Shown: one piece after another, positions 3,125 to 19,321 of the stretch | Layout of the letters: each line of letters starts with the position of its first letter | Numbering within the stretch: the stretch's first letter is position 1 | Virus record (IMG/VR): IMGVR_UViG_3300033148_006102 | Span: 64,001-128,000 of that record | Direction: 5' to 3' (one strand) | Length of the DNA stretch: 64,000 nucleotides | Source: a virus | Notes under the pieces: generated by a model | What the model saw: only the letters and a program-made list of their open reading frames with translations | Database searches by the model: none | What the model was told of the DNA's origin: nothing | Made by a program: the position numbers and the translations under genes

Positions 3125-3158
3125 GCTCTTTGACATCTGAAACGGCCAAACAAAAAAC

Positions 3159-3228
3159 GGGCGTAGATACAGGCTCGATGCCTGTCCTTTCCCGGTTGGG
3201 TAAGGTAGCTTAACGCAAAGCGACGCCC
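3159..3228 (+). ncRNA. Circularly permuted tRNA-like RNA (closed acceptor, no anticodon loop)
   Basis: GGGCGT..ACGCCC outer stem enclosing a T-arm, an acceptor capped by GGTT, TA and a D-arm. Confidence 0.65.
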
Positions 3229-3233
3229 TTTTC

Positions 3234-3307
3234 GCCGCTCTAGCTCAAGGGCAGAGCGCCACTCTCGTAAAGTGGAGATCCCAGTTCGACTCTGGGGAGC
3301 GGCTCCA
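3234..3307 (+). tRNA. tRNA-Thr(CGT)
   Basis: GCCGCTC/GAGCGGC-T-CCA; loop CT-CGT-AA. Confidence 0.92.
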
Positions 3308-4292: not shown

Positions 4293-6821
4293 ATGCCTGA
4301 TGCTGATCTCAGCCTGATCCTGAAGGGAAGTCGTGAAGTACATACGGCTTACCAAATCCAGATCATTTACGACGGCTTGAATGCGACACAACAAACTGCT
4401 GCAGCCACGCTGTTGGCAGAATACGGCATAAATGCCACAAATATCACGGCGACGAGTGCGCCGTTGGATGATATCGAACGCGCTCTGCAAACTATGTTGG
4501 CGACATTTATGGGAACTGCAGCTACAGGCTCAGGACCAGGTGTCGCTGACTTGGCGGCCTTGAAAGCGATCATTGCAGGTGATCGTACAGACAAGGACGT
4601 GCGGCTAGTCGAATCAGTAGGGTTAACCTATCGTTTCGATGCTGACAGCATTGTGGATCCTACAACAGATCCTGACATTGAAATTCCGGATGACGTTACG
4701 CATCCAGCCCCAGGTCGCTGGTATCTGGTTGAACTGGATGAAGCTGACGAAATTCTGTACGTCAACACAGCGAGTTGGCTGACGGCCACGCATATGCAAG
4801 CGGCTGTCGACGAATTGGCACCGGTGATGCATTCGCCAGTTGCAGATATTGCTGGATTGACGGCGATTGTCGCAGCTTCGCGTGCAGACAGGATGCTGGC
4901 CTTTGTTGATGATCAGAATCGTTTGTATAGTTTTGATGCTGCGGATACGACAGATCCGACTACGCGCACAGACATGGAAATTCCTGATGACGTGACGCAC
5001 CCAGCGCCAGGTCGTTGGATTCGAATGGCGTATCATGCATCTGAGCATGAAAACGGCGGTGTTGATGAGATCAGTGTTGCCGGTCTTAGTGGCCTCTTAG
5101 CAGATGACCAGAATCCGGTTAATCACGCAACTGATCACCAGCATGGCGGCAGCGATGAAGTCGCAACTGCCACACCTGGCGCCAACGCTATTCCGAAGGC
5201 AGACGCATCTGGCTTGCTTGATGGCTGGATCACACAGGCTTGGGACGCGATCGTCGTGGGCACTAACACGGCGGCTACGGATAAGACCAATATTGATGCG
5301 GCTATCTCAGCTGTATCTGCTGGGTCAGGCGATCGTAAGACCATCCTGTTGATGGGACGGTTTGCACTCGGTGCTAATGTGTTCGCGGCAGCGGATTACA
5401 TTACTTTCAATGCTGAGCAAGCATATTTCCGCAAGACTGCAGACAACGCTGGTACGATTTACTTCACCGGTACTGAAATGGTTATGCTCGGCGGTTTTGT
5501 CGAGAACGCCGGTTCATCGTCTAGCGGTGGTTTCTTTGGTGGTCATAAGTGGGAAGGCGGCTTTGTTCTTAGCTGGCCAGCCGCAACACTTATTTCAACT
5601 TCGCAGACCTATGCGCAGTTATCATACCGCGCACAGAGCGGCCTGCCTGTTTCGATATCTGGGGCGGGTTCACAGATTACCGCGAATTATGTAAACGGCG
5701 CAACAGCACCAACCAATAGTTCTTGGGATGTCGCCGCTTCGTCTGGAACGATCACACTTTCTGGCGATAACGTTAATTATCGTAATGGTGGAGGCGGCCC
5801 AGCTGTTGTGGTTTCAGGCTCGGGATCATACTGGCGTGGTAGAGCAAGTGGCGGTATTACAGTAACAGGTACGTATTCGCATGTTGAGGTACCGAACGGT
5901 GCTGCGACATGTAGCGTTACGCAATCTGGCCAAGAAAGCTTTGTAGACGTTCGAGCATCAACTGGCGCAATAGCGCTGAGTGGTATCAATATCACAACGC
6001 GCATCCAATACACTGGTTCCACAGTGTCATCTTTCACGAATACCGCGTCGGATTCAGATATTTTGGTTCGCATGCGTTACCTCGGTAATGCAGTAAATAT
6101 CGCGTTGGGTACAAGAAACACGTACTCGCTGCTCGTGCGGGATACAGCTGGTGGTACAGCTGATACTCTAACGCTGTTATCAGGTACGGACTGTCCAGAA
6201 GCTAAGATTCAGACAGTTCAGCCGACAGTTGATATCGGTGGCGCATCTTTGACAGGCTGCTCCATGACGGTGATGGCTACTGCAGCAGGCGCAGCGGTAA
6301 CAGCCAAGAATGGCTCAGTCGGTAACACGATTGACATTTATTGCGATACGCAGCCGACAGTCGAGGCAGACGCGGCACTTGAGAACACAATTCGTTGGTA
6401 CGACACTTCTGCCCGCGGTATCCTTCGGATGGCGTGGGAGAAGGGTCGCCTGTACCAGACCAAGGAAGAGCTCATCGACTTTGGTGGTACCGGTGCGAAG
6501 AACACGACTATTCAGGTCGACGCGAACGAATGGTGCGAAGGTGTACCGTTGGTTATCGAAACCATTGTTGCGGGTACAAACCCAGGAGCACCGACACAGG
6601 TTGTACCGACTTGGAATGCTGGCGGTATGACAGATCCAACACCGATTGCAGGTGTTGCGGTCAATACGAAGAGTACAGCAGATCTCTTCGAACAGTCTGC
6701 AGCAGCAGCTACTTTGAATCTTGATCCACAGACCGGCGGTGCAGCCTCTGTGGTTGATGCGACCGGCAAGGTGCGGGTCCGTTTCACAACCATCAGGAAT
6801 CTGGCAATGCCGGACGAATAA
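4293..6821 (+). CDS. Large virion/tail-fibre-like protein with beta-rich C-terminal half
   Basis: 842 aa; duplicated EIPDDVTHPAPGRW module, two HxxxHxxGGxDE motifs, G/S/T-rich beta-strand region. Confidence 0.55.
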   Translation: MPDADLSLILKGSREVHTAYQIQIIYDGLNATQQTAAATLLAEYGINATNITATSAPLDDIERALQTMLATFMGTAATGSGPGVADLAALKAIIAGDRTDKDVRLVESVGLTYRFDADSIVDPTTDPDIEIPDDVTHPAPGRWYLVELDEADEILYVNTASWLTATHMQAAVDELAPVMHSPVADIAGLTAIVAASRADRMLAFVDDQNRLYSFDAADTTDPTTRTDMEIPDDVTHPAPGRWIRMAYHASEHENGGVDEISVAGLSGLLADDQNPVNHATDHQHGGSDEVATATPGANAIPKADASGLLDGWITQAWDAIVVGTNTAATDKTNIDAAISAVSAGSGDRKTILLMGRFALGANVFAAADYITFNAEQAYFRKTADNAGTIYFTGTEMVMLGGFVENAGSSSSGGFFGGHKWEGGFVLSWPAATLISTSQTYAQLSYRAQSGLPVSISGAGSQITANYVNGATAPTNSSWDVAASSGTITLSGDNVNYRNGGGGPAVVVSGSGSYWRGRASGGITVTGTYSHVEVPNGAATCSVTQSGQESFVDVRASTGAIALSGINITTRIQYTGSTVSSFTNTASDSDILVRMRYLGNAVNIALGTRNTYSLLVRDTAGGTADTLTLLSGTDCPEAKIQTVQPTVDIGGASLTGCSMTVMATAAGAAVTAKNGSVGNTIDIYCDTQPTVEADAALENTIRWYDTSARGILRMAWEKGRLYQTKEELIDFGGTGAKNTTIQVDANEWCEGVPLVIETIVAGTNPGAPTQVVPTWNAGGMTDPTPIAGVAVNTKSTADLFEQSAAAATLNLDPQTGGAASVVDATGKVRVRFTTIRNLAMPDE

Positions 6822-7631: not shown

Positions 7632-8021
7632 TTGGCAATAAAACTGAACCAATTTCAAAACGGTCGACAGCGAGAGCATACTGTATCGATTCGCACTATC
7701 ATGGAACGTGCATTGGCGCGGACCGAAGATCAAACGCCTTTTCTAAGGGGTGTGCTGTTGTTAGATAAAGAATGGCGACAGATCTGTACAAAGCTGGACT
7801 ACATTGATGCTGCGCTAGCAGCGGCGGAACGCTACGAAGCTTCACTCAATGATAGCAGTCAAACGGCGGAAGATATGATGTTTGAAGCTTTGCGCGAACG
7901 TCTACCCAGCGATGTTGTCGACATGATGGAGTCGGTCACGCCATTCCGCAAGGATGGCAGTACACCGGCAGTTGAGGCAGTTGAGAAACTGGGAAAGTTT
8001 GTAGACAATGCGAAGCTTTAA
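7632..8021 (+). CDS. Hypothetical protein
   Basis: AAGGAGA SD and TTG start within ORF-track 7599-8021. Confidence 0.6.
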   Translation: MAIKLNQFQNGRQREHTVSIRTIMERALARTEDQTPFLRGVLLLDKEWRQICTKLDYIDAALAAAERYEASLNDSSQTAEDMMFEALRERLPSDVVDMMESVTPFRKDGSTPAVEAVEKLGKFVDNAKL

Positions 8022-8208
8022 GCAATGTGTTGAAGAATACAAACAAAATCATGCCTGTTTTTGCCTATATTGCGGTCACGACGAGCTGATAGTTCAAGAG
8101 CGATCTGGTCCTAAGATCGAGATGAAACAGCTTGTGACGTGCCCCAAGTGCAAGAGGGCCTGGTGGGAATACTGGGGCTTGATCAGTGTTGAAGAAGCGC
8201 TAGCATGA
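8008..8208 (+). CDS. Small Zn-ribbon protein
   Basis: CLYC...CPKC. Confidence 0.6.
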   Translation: MRSFKQCVEEYKQNHACFCLYCGHDELIVQERSGPKIEMKQLVTCPKCKRAWWEYWGLISVEEALA

Positions 8209-10521: not shown

Positions 10522-10593
10522 GGCACACCCGCATGGTGCGGACTTGCCTCTCATAAGGGCAAAGATTGAGTTCGATTCTCAGGTGTGCCACCA
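10522..10593 (+). tRNA. tRNA-Ile2 or Met (CAT), short D-loop type
   Basis: GGCACAC/GTGTGCC-A-CCA; D-arm CCGCA-TGG-TGCGG; loop CT-CAT-AA. Confidence 0.8.
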
Positions 10594-10684
10594 AATTTCT
10601 CTTGCAACGGTGAATCGGCATAATAGGATTCACGCAGGACTTTATTTTGCCGGAACAGTCCGCCGGCTTACAAAGGAGATCGCA

Positions 10685-12082
10685 ATGATGCATCACAGTA
10701 ACTGTGTGGTCACGCTCTGTGACCAGGACAACCGCCCATTCAGAGAATACAGCCACCACCGCGAAGGCGACGCCTCTCGCGCTAAGGTTAGTATTTCGTA
10801 CGGAACTGAGTACAAGTTCATGTTCCGTATCAGGGACCATCTTCGCCGGCGCGTCGAGTTCACGATCGACGGGTCGCAGGTAGGCGAGCTCATCTTCGAG
10901 GGTAACTCGCAGACCTATCTCGAGCGCTTCATCGACAGCGCACGCAAGTTCAAGGTCGTACATCCGGAGAGTAGCGAGTGCCAGGATCCGGGTAATCCGA
11001 AGAACGGCCAAGTCGAATTGACGGTATGGACAGAGAAGGCGCCGCCTCCGCCACCACCAAGGCCTGCGCGGCGTGCATTCCGCAGCCGTGGTATCACGGG
11101 ACAGACCATAGGTTGTTCTGGTATGAACAGCCCCGTCTTTGGTTCTTCTGCAGGCTCACTGGGATCCGCAGGTCCTGAATATGAGATGTTGACCAACGGC
11201 GCGGCCGCAACAGGCGAGGGCGGTTACTCGAATCAGGAATTTGGGTCGACTACCTGGCGCGGCGACGCAGGTGAGCCGATTACCTTCCAGTTCAAGATTA
11301 TGGGGAAGGAAGATGAGCATGCGCCGAACAGTAAGTTCTTCTACTGTGCGAAGTGCGGTGATCAGGTTCCTGTAGGCTCTAATTATTGCGGCAGGTGTGG
11401 TGCGCATATAGCAAGCATGAATCCTGACGGGTGCACGATTCATCTCGGCATCGTGCTTGATGAGTCGTCATCTATGGAAGGCGACTGGGATATGACGATC
11501 GACGCGATCAACGAGTATCTCGATACGCTGCAGGGTGACGACCACCGATACAGGGTCTCGATCACAGCCTTCAATACGGTGAGTCGTCCGGTCTTTCATG
11601 CGACGGATCTGACGAAGGATGTCCGGATAAGTCGGCACAACTACCGGCCTAACGGTATGACGGCGTTGTACGACGCGATCGCGGATGGTATCGGTAGCCT
11701 CGAAGACAGCGTATGGGATTATGACGGCAAGGCCATGCTGGTGATCATGACAGATGGCCAAGAGAATAGCTCCAGGAACTTCAGCCTTGACCGGATCCGT
11801 AAGTTGATCTCGAGCAAAGAACGCGATGGCAACTGGACGTTTGTCTACATGGGATCGCACAACGATGCTTGGAAGCATGGCAGCGCGCTCGGAATTAGTA
11901 AGGCGAATGTCATGCAGTTTGATCAGGCACAGGCGCAGCCGTTGATGCGCGCGTTTGGTGCAAGTACGCAGGCATATGCCAGCAGCGCGGATGCAAACTC
12001 GCAGGCCATCTTCGCGTCGAATAAAGCGGATTACAAGAATATCGGCGCAACGGCGATAGACGATCATAAGGCGGATTGTTAA
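10685..12082 (+). CDS. Multi-domain protein: N-terminal unknown domain, Zn-ribbon, C-terminal vWA domain
   Basis: AAAGGAG SD; CAKC..CGRC; VLDESSSM (DxSxS MIDAS), TALYDAI, VIMTDGQENSS. Confidence 0.8.
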   Translation: MMHHSNCVVTLCDQDNRPFREYSHHREGDASRAKVSISYGTEYKFMFRIRDHLRRRVEFTIDGSQVGELIFEGNSQTYLERFIDSARKFKVVHPESSECQDPGNPKNGQVELTVWTEKAPPPPPPRPARRAFRSRGITGQTIGCSGMNSPVFGSSAGSLGSAGPEYEMLTNGAAATGEGGYSNQEFGSTTWRGDAGEPITFQFKIMGKEDEHAPNSKFFYCAKCGDQVPVGSNYCGRCGAHIASMNPDGCTIHLGIVLDESSSMEGDWDMTIDAINEYLDTLQGDDHRYRVSITAFNTVSRPVFHATDLTKDVRISRHNYRPNGMTALYDAIADGIGSLEDSVWDYDGKAMLVIMTDGQENSSRNFSLDRIRKLISSKERDGNWTFVYMGSHNDAWKHGSALGISKANVMQFDQAQAQPLMRAFGASTQAYASSADANSQAIFASNKADYKNIGATAIDDHKADC

Positions 12083-15435: not shown

Positions 15436-17031
15436 ATGGCGAACAAGTCAATTTTCAGCACCCAGCGGGGGCCTGTACATCGACAGTACGGGGAAAGTGT
15501 GAAGACCGTTGATACGGTCAATGAGGCAGGCGGAGAGGCTTACAGCTTCACAGCAAAGTCTGCATTGGCGCAGTTGGCATCGACGGGCTGCTTTGGCAAC
15601 ACGTTCTATGTGAATGCCAAGAGTCAGCTTGACAAGGTTCAGGAATTGTTGCCACAGGTTGACAGCGAGTTTTTGGCCAAGCTGGCCGTATATGCCCGCC
15701 AGAAGGGTTACATGAAGGACATGCCGGCGCTCATGCTCGCGTATCTCTTCGCGCATGCGAAGGATTCTGCGACAGTTGGCGCGTATTTCAAGGCAGCGTT
15801 CCCGGAGGTCATGGACAATGGCCGTATGTTGCGAAACTTTGTCCAGATCATCCGTAGTGGCGTCACCGGGCGTAAGTCGTTCGGTACGGCCGGCAAGCGT
15901 GTGATCCAGGACTGGTTGACTAACCGGTCATACTGGAAGTTGTTCGGCGAAGCAGTTGGCAATGATCCGTCGATGTGTGATGTGCTCAAGATGACGCGGC
16001 CGCATCCAAAGGATGATGAGCAGCGTGCATTGTTTGGTTACATCACTGATGCGAAGGAAGGTTGGGACCGCGAGGCTCTGCCGGACTTCGTGAAGGAATT
16101 TGAGGCCTTCAAGCAGGATCAGACCAAACCTGTACCGAACGTTTCATTCGAACGGTTGTCTGCCCTTCCGCTTGGAAAGGAACACTGGATCGAGATCGCC
16201 AAGAAGGCGACTTGGTTCCAGACGCTCAAATCTCTTAACACGTACAAGCGTCATGGGGCGCTTGAGCATTCTGATGTTGTCGACATTGTCGCTGAGCGTT
16301 TGGCAGATCTTGAGTTGGTCAAGAAGGCCAAGGTATTTCCGTACCAGATCTTTGTGGCTTACAAGGCCGCGAATGACCTGCCACGGAAGATTACTAATGC
16401 GCTGCAGGATGCGCTGGAGCACGCGCTCCGAAACATCCCATTTTATGAGGGCCAGGTTTACATCTTCCCAGATGTTTCCGGCTCAATGTTATGGGGTAAC
16501 TTGACAGGTCATTCGCAGAGTTCAATTCGTTGTATTGACGTGGCGGCATTGATCACCGCGGCGATCATGAAGACGAACTATCTGGCGGAAGTACTTCCGT
16601 TTGATACACGCGTGCATGATGCGAAGTCATTGAATCATCGTGATTCAGTAGTACGCAACGCAGAGATCTTGTCGCGCTTTGGCGGTGGCGGAACGTACTG
16701 CGAGCTTCCGCTGCGTGAACTGAACGACCGTAACGCGAAGGGCGACCTGTTAATCTACGTCTCGGATAACGAGTCGTGGGTCGGCGCCGGCTATCGCAGC
16801 CATACAGGCTTGCTCAATGAGTGGGCGAAGTTCAAGCAGCGTAACCGGCAGGCCAAGATGGTCTGCATTGATCTGCAGGCTAACACCAGCACGCAGGCAA
16901 CGGATACGCCGGACATCTTGAATGTCGGTGGATTCTCTGATCAGGTGTTCAACGTTATCGACGCCTTTTTGAAGGGTGGATCTGATAAGGAACATTGGGT
17001 CAAGGAAATCGAGAAAGTTTATCTAGGATAG
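15436..17031 (+). CDS. rsr: Ro60/TROVE RNA-binding protein (Rsr)
   Basis: NEAGGEAY, LAQLASTGCFGNTFY, YARQKGYMKDMP, MLRNFVQIIRSG, vWA DVSGSM, SDNESW, LNVGGFSDQVF. Confidence 0.95.
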   Translation: MANKSIFSTQRGPVHRQYGESVKTVDTVNEAGGEAYSFTAKSALAQLASTGCFGNTFYVNAKSQLDKVQELLPQVDSEFLAKLAVYARQKGYMKDMPALMLAYLFAHAKDSATVGAYFKAAFPEVMDNGRMLRNFVQIIRSGVTGRKSFGTAGKRVIQDWLTNRSYWKLFGEAVGNDPSMCDVLKMTRPHPKDDEQRALFGYITDAKEGWDREALPDFVKEFEAFKQDQTKPVPNVSFERLSALPLGKEHWIEIAKKATWFQTLKSLNTYKRHGALEHSDVVDIVAERLADLELVKKAKVFPYQIFVAYKAANDLPRKITNALQDALEHALRNIPFYEGQVYIFPDVSGSMLWGNLTGHSQSSIRCIDVAALITAAIMKTNYLAEVLPFDTRVHDAKSLNHRDSVVRNAEILSRFGGGGTYCELPLRELNDRNAKGDLLIYVSDNESWVGAGYRSHTGLLNEWAKFKQRNRQAKMVCIDLQANTSTQATDTPDILNVGGFSDQVFNVIDAFLKGGSDKEHWVKEIEKVYLG

Positions 17032-17037
17032 GAATTT

Positions 17038-17177
17038 GGGGCGAATGCGGACGGGATTACATTGATTCATAATCCGTTGGTCGGAGGTTCGAATCCTTCC
17101 CTCGCCACCACTATGGCGAGGTAGCTCAGTCTGGTAGAGCAGCGTATATGTCAAATCTCGTCGATTCTCGTCGCCCC
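17038..17177 (+). ncRNA. yrlA: YrlA-like Y RNA with permuted tRNA module
   Basis: GGGGCGA/TCGCCCC closing stem; T-arm, acceptor 3' strand with ACCA, acceptor 5' strand, D-arm in permuted order; directly after rsr. Confidence 0.85.
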
Positions 17178-17196
17178 ATCCTTTTCCTTCTTATTT

Positions 17197-17273
17197 GGGT
17201 GAATGCCGGTATGGGAGTACATTTCTGCGTGTAATGCTGAACCATGACCACTCTCTACCATCTTTCGTCACCC
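17197..17273 (+). ncRNA. Short Y-RNA-like RNA 2
   Basis: GGGTGA/TCACCC stem; shared GAATGC..TACATT and TCGTC motifs. Confidence 0.75.
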
Positions 17274-17285
17274 ACCCTTTTGAAA

Positions 17286-17353
17286 TGGCCGAATGCCGAT
17301 TGGACTACATTGTATCCATCACAAACAACGTCTAATCATAAGCTCGTCGGCCA
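17286..17353 (+). ncRNA. Short Y-RNA-like RNA 3
   Basis: TGGCCGA/TCGGCCA stem; GAATGC..TACATT; inner GATTGGAC/GTCTAATC stem. Confidence 0.75.
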
Positions 17354-17362
17354 TTTTCTTTT

Positions 17363-17759
17363 GGGGGTGAGTAGGATCGACTGGTCGTTACTGACTGGAA
17401 GAAGCGTGTCGCAGTTGACCAACACCTGCGTTATCAAGATGGTCGCAAACCCAGATGGCAACATCCATCACATGAGCGATTACGCTCGTCCGCAGCTTCA
17501 GGCTGCATAAAGGACAGCTCCGACCAGGTAGCTACCACACCTGGCTGCGGGATACCAACCCAAGGTGAGAAACCAAACAGAGTTAGGTCGGTGAACATGC
17601 CGCAGAGGGGATTCACCATCGAAGTTACGGCGGATAAGGCGTGACCGGGCTGTCGTCGGCTCAGAGGATCGCTCGAAAACATAGATGACGACTACACACG
17701 TAGAAGTGCCGGAATGATCGATACAGCACACGGGGTGCGACTCCCCGTCACCTCCACCA
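17363..17759 (+). ncRNA. ssrA: tmRNA; tag (A)ANPDGNIHHMSDYARPQLQAA
   Basis: GGGGGTG/CACCTCC-A-CCA with G3:U70, GGATCGAC 5' motif, PK1-like pairings, tag ORF 17445-17510 ending AA. Confidence 0.93.
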
Positions 17760-17765
17760 GATTTT

Positions 17766-17873
17766 GCCGTCGAATGCGGTGATAATTATTACCCCGCACT
17801 GAAAACTATTTCGGGAATTTGGCTACCGGAAATAGGCAGTAGGAAGCCGAATAGCCTACGGGGAATCGGCGGC
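17766..17873 (+). ncRNA. Y-RNA-like RNA 4
   Basis: GCCGTCGA/TCGGCGGC stem with the CGAATGCGG motif; internal hairpins. Confidence 0.55.
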
Positions 17874-17907
17874 CCATATTGAGAGCGCACGGGGGTTCCG
17901 TGCACGC

Positions 17908-17956
17908 GCCGCGCAACGTTCATGCTCATGTCCGTTGCGCGGCTGCTTTCTTTTTT
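17908..17956 (+). terminator. Intrinsic terminator closing the Ro-Y-ssrA unit
   Basis: GCCGCGCAACG/CGTTGCGCGGC 11-bp stem followed by TGCTTTCTTTTTT. Confidence 0.8.
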
Positions 17957-17966
17957 ACGAAGAGGG

Positions 17967-19032: not shown

Positions 19033-19109
19033 GCCTCCGTAGGCGAATTGGGATAGCCGCTTGACTTAGGATCAAGTGTTTGTGAGTTCGACTTTCACCG
19101 GAGGTACCA
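19033..19109 (+). tRNA. tRNA-Leu(TAG), short variable loop
   Basis: GCCTCCG/CGGAGGT-A-CCA; loop CT-TAG-GA. Confidence 0.88.
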
Positions 19110-19114
19110 ATATT

Positions 19115-19236
19115 GAAGAGTACGGCGACGCAGCGAACTGCGGACGGGGTAGGCGGGTTGCTAGCACTTGGCCTGCACGGGCGGAATAAATCGAAAGACG
19201 CCGTGAGCAGAGGTAATTGAACTGCCCGTACTCTTC
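19115..19236 (+). ncRNA. Unknown multi-hairpin structured RNA
   Basis: 11-bp closing stem GAAGAGTACGG/CCGTACTCTTC and four internal hairpins; flanked by tRNAs. Confidence 0.6.
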
Positions 19237-19244
19237 TTCATTTT

Positions 19245-19321
19245 GGCAGCGTAGGCGAATTGGGATAGCCGCCGTACTCAAAATGCGGTGTTTGTGGGTT
19301 CGACTCCCACCGCTGCTACCA
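19245..19321 (+). tRNA. tRNA-Leu(CAA), short variable loop
   Basis: GGCAGCG/CGCTGCT-A-CCA; loop CT-CAA-AA. Confidence 0.88.

What the first reader, a model, noticed from the sequence alone, without database searches (positions are those of the whole stretch)
15436..17873. Ro60 followed by four Y-RNA-like genes with tmRNA interleaved
After rsr come one YrlA-type RNA and three RNAs (77, 68, 108 nt) sharing a terminal stem, GAATGC, usually TACATT, and a 3' TCGTC/TCGGC, each with a different payload. tmRNA lies between the third and fourth, and one terminator closes the unit. Bacterial Ro60 typically has one or two Y RNAs that tether partners such as PNPase. Inference: a modular set of Ro60 RNPs with different or no effector arms (decoys, gatekeepers), co-transcribed with tmRNA.
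Basis: partly seen in the sequence, partly recalled or inferred. Interest (0 to 1): 0.8.

Follow-up and report, generated by a model that had tools for sequence, protein, structure and literature searches.

The report
Phage Ro60, Y RNAs and tmRNA
A 195-kb uncultured phage carries a Ro60 gene followed, without gaps, by three convincing partner "Y" RNAs and a ribosome-rescue tmRNA, but rows of three to seven Y RNAs prove usual beside this kind of Ro60 gene, so this is a good new example of known biology, and the proposed fourth Y RNA is doubtful.

Summary
The observation mostly holds. The ORF at 15436-17031 is a Ro60/Rsr protein. A YrlA RNA follows at 17038-17177 (Rfam 64.9 bits, just under the 69-bit cut-off). 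Two short hairpin Y RNAs follow at 17197-17273 and 17286-17353, both with the YrlA Rsr-binding stem. Then come a tmRNA (17363-17759), a fourth candidate (17766-17873) and a strong terminator (17908-17956). Spacers are only 6-19 nt and U-rich, so one transcript is very likely.

The only close relative is a 178-kb phage-like contig, L013. It has the same order (rsr, YrlA, two short Y RNAs, tmRNA), with compensatory stem changes, but nothing like Y4.

Y4 has the 5' GNCGAAUG motif and an 8-bp closing stem. It lacks the 3' loop and the UACAU signature, misses my covariance model, and resembles background matches.

The premise that bacteria have one or two Y RNAs fails for this clade. Of 168 rsr loci, 93 carry three to nine modules on the rsr strand (492 modules, against 2 on the opposite strand). 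A phage Ro60 that binds two phage Y RNAs and host PNPase is already published.

The tmRNA adjacency recurs in a second, probably phage, lineage and may be undescribed. Earlier reports of this scan already noted tandem Y arrays on other DNA.

The parts
15436..17031 (+). rsr: Ro60/Rsr protein, 531 aa (TROVE ring plus vWA domain; the MIDAS-type DVSGS motif is present)
   Evidence: Pfam vWA_Ro60 1.4e-14 and TROVE 2.6e-8. PDB matches: phage phiLo Ro60 9KOP/9L5Y at 4.4e-20 and D. radiodurans Rsr 2NVO at 5e-19. The closest protein is 67% identical, on a 178-kb contig; the next ones are about 50% identical and bacterial.
17038..17177 (+). Y1: a YrlA-type Y RNA. It has the Rsr-binding stem (GGGGCGA AUGC ... 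CUCG UCGCCCC) and a permuted tRNA-like domain (T arm, acceptor-like stem with encoded ACCA, D arm).
   Evidence: RF02553, 64.9 bits (cut-off 69), E 3.4e-14, model positions 1-114. MFE -53.8 kcal/mol, z -3.2. The L013 ortholog at 7670-7804 (48.7 bits) shows three both-sided compensatory changes in stem 2 (read).
17197..17273 (+). Y2: a 77-nt hairpin Y RNA. It has the Rsr-binding stem (GGGUGA AUGC ... UUCG UCACCC), a bulged stem 2, UACAU, and an extended apical hairpin.
   Evidence: Descriptor hit. R1 covariance model 42.2 bits, but it was a seed member. MFE -25.5 kcal/mol, z -2.7. In the motif GGUGAAUG the conserved C is a U, and the paired 3' base is an A rather than a G.
17286..17353 (+). Y3: a 68-nt short hairpin Y RNA (YrlB-like class): UGGCCGA AUGCC GAUUGGAC UACAUU ... 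GUCUAAUC ... CUCG UCGGCCA.
   Evidence: Descriptor hit. R1 57.8 bits, as a seed member. MFE z -3.6. The L013 ortholog at 8016-8082 shows two compensatory changes in stem 2. It fits the consensus of 59 short Y RNAs from many phyla.
17363..17759 (+). tmRNA (ssrA). It has a G3-U70 acceptor stem and an encoded CCA. The tag frame at 17457-17510 reads GNIHHMSDYARPQLQAA*.
   Evidence: RF00023, 69.1 bits (cut-off 47), E 8e-25. The tag was translated. The homologous tag in L013 is GNVHNMSDYTRPLALVA, and that tmRNA scores 109 bits. ARAGORN misses the window copy.
17766..17873 (+). Y4 candidate: a 108-nt multi-hairpin element closed by an 8-bp stem (GCCGUCGA / UCGGCGGC) and carrying GUCGAAUGC. Its status as a Y RNA is doubtful.
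   Evidence: Sequence. MFE -38 kcal/mol, z -2.5. No R1 hit and no Rfam hit. No counterpart after the L013 tmRNA. Closings of this kind are near background.
17908..17956 (+). Intrinsic terminator: an 11-bp GC-rich hairpin (GCCGCGCAACG / CGUUGCGCGGC) followed by UGCUUUCUUUUUU. A second hairpin precedes it at 17887-17903.
   Evidence: Fold of 17875-17960: -41.6 kcal/mol, z -4.8, 0 of 200 shuffles as stable. No convincing terminator-like site lies between rsr and this point.

Best explanation
This is an ordinary rsr-Y RNA cassette of the YrlA type, carried by a large tRNA-rich phage and fused into one non-coding RNA operon with the phage tmRNA.

Shown by sequence:
- A Ro60/Rsr gene.
- One YrlA with a tRNA-like effector domain.
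- Two short hairpin Y RNAs with the same Rsr-binding handle: a terminal helix, a 5' GNCGAAUGC, a second helix, UACAU, and a 3' YUYG loop.
- A tmRNA that starts 9 nt after Y3.
- One strong terminator.

Inferred:
- rsr, Y1-Y3 and the tmRNA are made as one precursor. This parallels the Yrn2-tRNAAsp-Yrn1 precursor of D. radiodurans.
- Host enzymes cut the precursor at the U-rich spacers: RNase P at the tmRNA 5' end, plus RNase E and trimming exonucleases.
- Each Y RNA then binds the outer face of the phage Rsr ring through its 5' strand. It gates the ring cavity and, through its payload, tethers Rsr to a host effector.
- The likeliest effector is PNPase, as shown for D. radiodurans, S. Typhimurium and Thermus phage phiLo. 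This would direct degradation of structured or damaged RNA during infection.
- The cassette sits beside tRNA and tmRNA genes that keep translation running.

Y4 is most likely either a remodelled, possibly inactive Y derivative or an unrelated structured 3' element.
For: - Protein identity.
- YrlA.
- Y2 and Y3 carry the consensus handle.
- The relative L013 keeps the order rsr, YrlA, short Y, Y3 ortholog, tmRNA, with compensatory changes in stems.
- The handle travels with rsr. There are 492 modules on the rsr strand against 2 on the other strand in 168 loci.
- When sites are picked by the 5' motif alone, 533 of 696 on the rsr strand have a perfect 6-bp partner plus YG. On the other strand it is 3 of 59.
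- Spacers of 6-19 nt and a single terminator.
- Literature: GNCGAAN0-1G is the likely Rsr contact; all three tested bacteria have at least two Y RNAs; Deinococcus makes a polycistronic Y/tRNA precursor (PMC4201824). Phage phiLo Ro60 binds two phage Y-like RNAs and host PNPase (PMC12135203).
Against: - There are no expression or binding data for this uncultured phage.
- YrlA scores just under Rfam's cut-off.
- Y2 and Y3 were in the seed of my model, so their scores are partly circular.
- Only one close relative exists, so covariation within the lineage rests on two sequences.
- The phage has no RtcB or RNA ligase, so the RNA-repair context seen in enterobacteria is missing.
- PNPase as the effector is an analogy, not a result.
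Confidence: 0.78

Rival explanations
1. All four elements, Y4 included, are Rsr-binding RNAs. Y4 would be a new Y RNA class with a multi-helix payload and a closed 3' side.
For: - Y4 has an exact GNCGAAUG motif (GUCGAAUG) directly after a U-rich 6-nt spacer, like the others.
- An 8-bp terminal stem encloses the whole gap between the tmRNA and the terminator hairpins.
- Ro60 contacts mainly the 5' strand (PMC4201824; bioRxiv 10.1101/312249).
Against: - It has no 3' YUYG loop, no UACAU and no long-range stem 2.
- AUGCGG can pair locally instead.
- It is missed by R1 at E<=10.
- It is absent from L013.
- GAATGC with a 7-bp closing stem and no loop occurs 97 times on the rsr strand and 69 times on the opposite strand.
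Confidence: 0.3
2. Only YrlA is functional. Y2 and Y3 are decaying duplicates of its stem, or mere processing spacers between rsr and the tmRNA.
For: - The mini-Y of L013 (7942-7998) has stem sequences nearly identical to its neighbouring YrlA, as a recent duplication with loss of the tRNA domain would give.
- Decayed copies do exist: window 3142-3241 and L013 7805-7941.
Against: - Y3 has an ortholog with compensatory changes in L013.
- Short hairpin Y RNAs of this design are common beside rsr: 95 of the 492 modules across many phyla, with a conserved consensus.
- Short Y RNAs (YrlB, Yrn2) are bound by Rsr in all three tested bacteria (PMC4201824).
Confidence: 0.1
3. The tight linkage to the tmRNA is functional. 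On this view the Rsr-Y RNPs act together with tmRNA-mediated ribosome rescue, for example by clearing the damaged mRNAs, tRNAs or rRNA that cause stalling.
For: - The tmRNA starts 9 nt after Y3.
- The order is the same in L013.
- A second, probably phage, lineage (L104/L099) also places a tmRNA just after an rsr-Y-tRNA array.
Against: - Only 2 of 168 rsr loci besides the window have a tmRNA in range.
- In L104 a promoter-like sequence precedes the tmRNA.
- Mycobacteriophage Ro genes are not next to the tmRNA.
- Clustering of stable-RNA genes in phage tRNA islands explains the adjacency without any shared function.
Confidence: 0.12

Closest known systems
YrlA/YrlB with Rsr in Salmonella Typhimurium and Mycobacterium smegmatis (Chen et al. 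2013, 2014; Rfam RF02553)
   Same: - Ro60 ortholog with Y RNAs within 4 kb on the same strand.
- One Y RNA has a permuted tRNA-like domain, and there are shorter hairpin Y RNAs.
- GNCGAAN0-1G motif.
- Processing from a common precursor.
   Different: - Here the carrier is a phage.
- There are three (perhaps four) RNAs.
- There are no rtcBA genes.
- A tmRNA lies inside the same unit.
Yrn2-tRNAAsp-Yrn1 locus of Deinococcus radiodurans
   Same: Y RNAs are co-transcribed with a tRNA-type gene as a polycistronic precursor next to rsr. Two Y RNAs have different payloads, and PNPase tethering is shown for one.
   Different: The Deinococcus Y RNAs belong to the metazoan-like lineage and lie upstream of rsr. 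The co-transcribed stable RNA is a tRNA, not a tmRNA.
Thermus phage phiLo Ro60 with Yrl1 and Yrl2 (NAR 2025, PMC12135203; PDB 9KOP, 9L5Y)
   Same: A phage-encoded Ro60 has several phage-encoded Y-like RNAs carrying the CGAA motif near the gene. Binding to Ro60 and ternary complexes with host PNPase are shown in vitro. It is the best PDB match to this protein.
   Different: The phiLo RNAs lie upstream of the gene. No tRNA-like YrlA and no tmRNA are reported. The proteins are only distantly related.
Mycobacteriophage cluster C Ro-like protein with YrlA (Pedulla 2003; Chen 2014)
   Same: Large phages carry many tRNAs, a tmRNA, a Ro homologue and a YrlA.
   Different: There the Ro gene is not adjacent to the tRNA and tmRNA genes, and the protein is only about 22-24% identical.

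Membership tests
Ro60/Rsr protein | TROVE (HEAT-repeat ring) domain followed by a vWA domain with a MIDAS motif | tested here: met
   Pfam TROVE 2.6e-8 and vWA_Ro60 1.4e-14. DVSGS is read in the translation (consensus). The protein matches the solved Rsr and Ro60 structures over nearly its full length.
YrlA (Rfam RF02553) | Score at or above Rfam's gathering threshold (69 bits) | tested here: not met
   64.9 bits, E 3.4e-14, with the full model aligned. This is a near miss caused by long insertions.
YrlA (criteria of Chen et al. 2014) | Best genome match to the model, within 4 kb of rsr, on the same strand; GNCGAAN0-1G; T arm, acceptor-like stem and D arm in permuted order | tested here: met
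   It is the best hit in the whole phage genome. It starts 6 nt after the rsr stop. GGCGAAUG is present, and the T, acceptor and D arms align.
Y RNA (general; applied to Y2 and Y3) | The 5' and 3' ends pair into a long stem that holds the conserved Ro60-binding motif, and the gene lies next to rsr | tested here: met
   Folds, descriptor, consensus with 59 short Y RNAs. Y3 has GCCGAAUG. Y2 has GGUGAAUG with a compensating 3' A.
Y RNA (general; applied to Y2 and Y3) | Physical binding to Ro60/Rsr and Rsr-dependent accumulation | not testable with these tools
   This needs RIP, EMSA or Northern blots.
Y RNA (applied to Y4, 17766-17873) | Handle architecture: terminal stem, 5' AUGC loop facing a 3' YUYG loop, long-range stem 2, UACAU | tested here: not met
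   Only the 5' motif and the terminal stem are present. There is no R1 match and no ortholog in L013.
tmRNA (RF00023) | Score above the gathering threshold; tRNA-like ends with G3-U70 and CCA; tag reading frame ending in a stop codon | tested here: met
   69.1 bits against a cut-off of 47. GGGGGUG/CACCUCC-ACCA is read. The tag GNIHHMSDYARPQLQAA* is homologous to the L013 tag. ARAGORN did not call it.
Intrinsic terminator | GC-rich hairpin directly followed by a U tract | tested here: met
   The simple scanner missed it because the loop is 14 nt.

The most novel reading that the evidence does not exclude
The phage makes a graded set of Rsr RNPs from one precursor and ties their production to its tmRNA. 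Y4 would be a new multi-helix class of Rsr ligand, and the rsr-Y-tmRNA module, seen in two phage lineages, would be a dedicated unit that joins ribosome rescue to degradation of the damaged RNAs behind stalling, for example after attack by host anticodon nucleases.
Probability: 0.1. Interest if true: 0.6.

Novelty: new member of a known kind. Interest (0 to 1): 0.3.

Why it matters
For the phage, the result gives a clean, compact candidate for testing what Ro60-Y RNPs do during infection. One 2.5-kb fragment encodes the protein, three ligands with different payloads, and a tmRNA.

The by-product matters more widely. In the rsr clade that shares the YrlA handle, tandem arrays of three to seven Y modules are the rule. 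They include a widespread short hairpin class that no Rfam model matched at E<=10 in this window. rsr-Y cassettes are also often embedded in tRNA islands, and occasionally sit with a tmRNA or RNase P RNA. This fits the proposal that YrlA arose from dimeric tRNA transcripts. It also suggests that counts of about 1.3 Y RNAs per genome (Chen et al. 2014) are underestimates.

Tried and rejected
The 67% relative was reached through genome contigs instead.
- Seven IMG/VR contigs with Ro60 about 45% identical showed no Rfam RNA at all within 4 kb. Myxococcus phage Mx1 has Ro60 in a tRNA island but no module by descriptor or by R1.
- The metagenome scan found nothing closer than 52%. A degenerate pattern from the tmRNA tag found no relative in viral contigs.
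- A 14-base Y-handle pattern in viral contigs returned mostly chance matches: only 13 of 160 locus-strands had a full module. I dropped this line.
- I tested whether Y4-like modules without the YG loop form a real subclass. They do not clearly do so: 97 against 69.
- I looked for RtcB and RNA ligase in the phage, to find an RNA-repair context. Neither is present.
- I aligned window 19105-19250 with the L013 Y module at 5587-5699. There is only a short 3' resemblance, which is inconclusive.
- The reviews by Sim & Wolin (2018), Boccitto & Wolin (2019) and Sim et al. (2020) were not held. The Chen 2014 supplements were not held either. I therefore could not check whether large arrays are already tabulated there.
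Full report
**Setting.** The window is bases 64001-128000 of a 195,108-bp IMG/VR phage record with direct terminal repeats. The finding lies inside a plus-strand island of 28 tRNA genes interspersed with HNH endonuclease genes.

**The observation, element by element.**

*rsr.* The ORF at 15436-17031 (531 aa) is a Ro60/Rsr protein.
- It matches Pfam vWA_Ro60 at 1.4e-14 and TROVE at 2.6e-8.
- Its best solved relatives are the Ro60 of Thermus phage phiLo (9KOP/9L5Y, 4.4e-20) and D. radiodurans Rsr (2NVO, 5e-19).

*Y1.* Six bases after the stop codon, Rfam's YrlA model aligns end to end at 17038-17180.
- The score is 64.9 bits, E 3.4e-14, just below the curated 69 bits.
- The alignment shows the terminal helix, the 5' CGAAUGC, a second helix, a T arm, an acceptor-like stem, a D arm and the 3' CUCGUCGCC.

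*Y2 and Y3.* The next two elements, 17197-17273 and 17286-17353, repeat this handle around much smaller payloads.
- They fold as long hairpins (z -2.7 and -3.6).
- Chen et al. (2014, PMC4201824) name GNCGAAN0-1G as the likely Rsr contact. Y1 has GGCGAAUG and Y3 has GCCGAAUG.
- Y2 has GGUGAAUG, and its paired 3' base is changed from G to A.

*tmRNA.* RF00023 matches 17363-17759 at 69.1 bits.
- It has a G3-U70 acceptor stem and an encoded CCA.
- Its tag frame reads GNIHHMSDYARPQLQAA*.
- ARAGORN misses it.

*Terminator.* An 11-bp GC-rich hairpin with a U tract lies at 17908-17956. The fold of 17875-17960 gives -41.6 kcal/mol, z -4.8.

*Spacers.* They measure 6, 19, 12, 9 and 6 nt and are U-rich. 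No convincing terminator-like site lies inside the unit. Co-transcription of rsr, Y1-Y3 and the tmRNA is therefore strongly implied, though not shown.

**Is it more than chance?** I wrote a descriptor with four requirements:
- a 6-bp terminal stem ending in RA;
- AUG(C);
- a second stem of at least 6 bp;
- YG before the 3' strand.

It finds 6 hits in the whole phage genome against 1.4 in block shuffles. Y1, Y2 and Y3 are three consecutive hits within 320 nt.

**Relatives.** The only close relative is L013, a 178,574-bp tRNA-rich contig binned in a 'Dependentiae' MAG. Its Ro60 is 67% identical.
- It has the same order: rsr, YrlA (48.7 bits), a 57-nt mini-Y whose stems nearly copy its YrlA, an ortholog of Y3, then a tmRNA (109 bits).
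- Between the two phages, stem 2 of YrlA differs by three both-sided compensatory changes. Stem 2 of Y3 differs by two (read).
- Nothing like Y4 follows the L013 tmRNA. A small ORF sits there instead.

**Y4.** The element at 17766-17873 has GUCGAAUGC after a U-rich spacer and an 8-bp closing stem (GCCGUCGA/UCGGCGGC).
- Its 3' side is GGGGAA|UCGGCGGC, so there is no YUYG loop. There is also no UACAU.
- The bases after AUGC pair locally rather than with the far 3' side.
- I built a covariance model, R1, from 59 short Y RNAs. It scores Y3 at 57.8 bits and Y2 at 42.2 bits, both seed members.
- R1 also scores two L013 modules that were not in the seed, at 34.2 and 33.6 bits. It gives no match to Y4 at E<=10 in the window or in the whole genome.
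- Across 168 rsr loci, GAATGC with a 7-bp closing stem but no YG occurs 97 times on the rsr strand and 69 times on the opposite strand. That combination alone is close to background.
- I put the chance that Y4 binds Rsr at about 0.3.

**How unusual is a multi-Y array?** It is not unusual. I collected 168 rsr loci: 7 viral contigs, Myxococcus phage Mx1, 80 from GTDB genomes and 80 from metagenomes. Their Ro60 proteins are 40-67% identical to this one.

| Strict modules per locus (rsr strand) | Loci |
|---|---|
| 0 | 33 |
| 1 | 11 |
| 2 | 31 |
| 3 | 30 |
| 4 | 20 |
| 5 | 19 |
| 6 | 16 |
| 7 | 7 |
| 9 | 1 |

- In total there are 492 strict modules on the rsr strand and 2 on the opposite strand.
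- Of these, 95 are shorter than 90 nt, and 333 carry a T-arm-like motif.
- Both the descriptor and the model demand pairing, so I repeated the test picking sites by the 5' motif alone. Of 696 sites on the rsr strand, 533 (77%) have a perfect 6-bp partner plus YG within 200 nt. On the opposite strand it is 3 of 59.
- Those sites carry 136 different outer-stem words. The handle is therefore a real, covarying structure that travels with rsr, and three or more copies per locus is the norm in this clade.
- Chen et al. (2014) reported 355 YrlAs in 276 genomes and at least two Y RNAs in each of the three species tested. The large arrays may be under-reported, but I could not read the reviews or the supplements.
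- Earlier reports of this scan noted three- and five-member arrays in Pseudomonas and larger ones in phages. My survey agrees with them independently.

**The tmRNA adjacency.** ARAGORN finds a tmRNA in only two of the 168 loci, L013 and L104. Rfam adds a cut-off copy at the end of L099.
- L104 and L099 are one element. Its order is rsr, Y, tRNA-Met, Y, Y, tRNA-Glu, then a tmRNA (152.9 bits) about 110 nt later, behind a promoter-like sequence.
- An endolysin-like gene lies nearby, so this element is probably also a phage.
- Many rsr-Y loci sit in tRNA islands of up to 25 tRNAs, and one also holds RNase P RNA (L159, 131 bits).
- In a cluster C mycobacteriophage (ScoobyDoobyDoo) the Ro gene is not next to a tmRNA.
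- The adjacency is thus a recurrent but rare arrangement. The clustering of stable-RNA genes explains it most simply, and I found no evidence of a functional tie.

**Mechanism.**

*Shown:* the gene content, the shared handle, its conservation and the compact layout.

*Inferred from named precedents:*
- One precursor is cut at the U-rich spacers and at the tmRNA 5' end. This parallels the Deinococcus Yrn2-tRNAAsp-Yrn1 precursor (PMC4201824).
- The Y RNAs bind the Rsr ring mainly through their 5' strand (PMC4201824; bioRxiv 10.1101/312249).
- Their payloads recruit or exclude partners. Host PNPase is the best-supported partner (Deinococcus, Salmonella, and phage phiLo in PMC12135203).
- The phage encodes no RtcB or RNA ligase.

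**Verdict.** The fourth Y RNA is doubtful. The interpretation restates the accepted model and rests on a wrong premise about typical copy number. This is a new member of a known kind, with a minor twist in gene order.

Noticed in passing
window 3142-3241: A decayed YrlA-like element (RF02553, 24.5 bits, full model) lies between tRNA-Gly and tRNA-Thr. It keeps T-arm, acceptor-like and D-arm parts, but the Rsr handle is lost (CCAAAC in place of CGAAUGC). It is syntenic with an intact second YrlA in the relative (L013 434-563, 38.5 bits), which also follows a tRNA-Gly.
   Followed up: partly
L013 5587-5699: The relative carries a further Y module with an intact handle and a T-arm-like payload inside its tRNA array (R1 34.2 bits, not in the seed). 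That lineage therefore scatters Y RNAs among its tRNA genes.
   Followed up: partly
L104 1647-2758 and L099 6654-7530: A second lineage has rsr, a short Y, a variant Y with a T arm, tRNA-Met, Y, Y, tRNA-Glu, a promoter-like sequence and a tmRNA (152.9 bits). An amidase/PG-binding endolysin-like gene lies upstream in L099, so it is probably a phage.
   Followed up: partly
L159 9067-9827: A bacterial class A RNase P RNA (131 bits) lies in the same 11.5-kb island as rsr, 20 tRNA genes and 5 Y modules.
   Followed up: no
L145 4095-4909; also L051, L054, L128, L146: These loci hold arrays of seven back-to-back Y modules with 10-25-nt spacers. In L145 the array follows four tRNA genes and precedes rsr. 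In Mesorhizobium (L051, L054) it follows rsr.
   Followed up: partly
window 17083-17122 (inside Y1): The acceptor-like stem of Y1 is closed by a loop that encodes ACCA (CCUCGCC-ACCA-CUAU-GGCGAGG). RNase P-type cleavage could therefore expose a ready-made CCA end, as reported after CCA addition for M. smegmatis YrlA. The L013 ortholog lacks it.
   Followed up: no
window 10544-12082: The ORF upstream in the island encodes a zinc-ribbon plus vWA protein (VWA 9.7e-10). Myxococcus phage Mx1 also has a VWA protein a few kb upstream of its Ro60 in a tRNA island.
   Followed up: no
L013 7805-7941: Between the YrlA and the mini-Y of the relative lies a degenerate handle (ACCCAAAUGCC...GGAAUACAUUG) with no proper 3' partner. 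It is probably a decayed Y module.
   Followed up: no
window 17363-17759: ARAGORN does not report this tmRNA, although Rfam scores it 22 bits above its threshold and ARAGORN finds the L013 ortholog. Annotation that relies on ARAGORN alone would miss it.
   Followed up: yes
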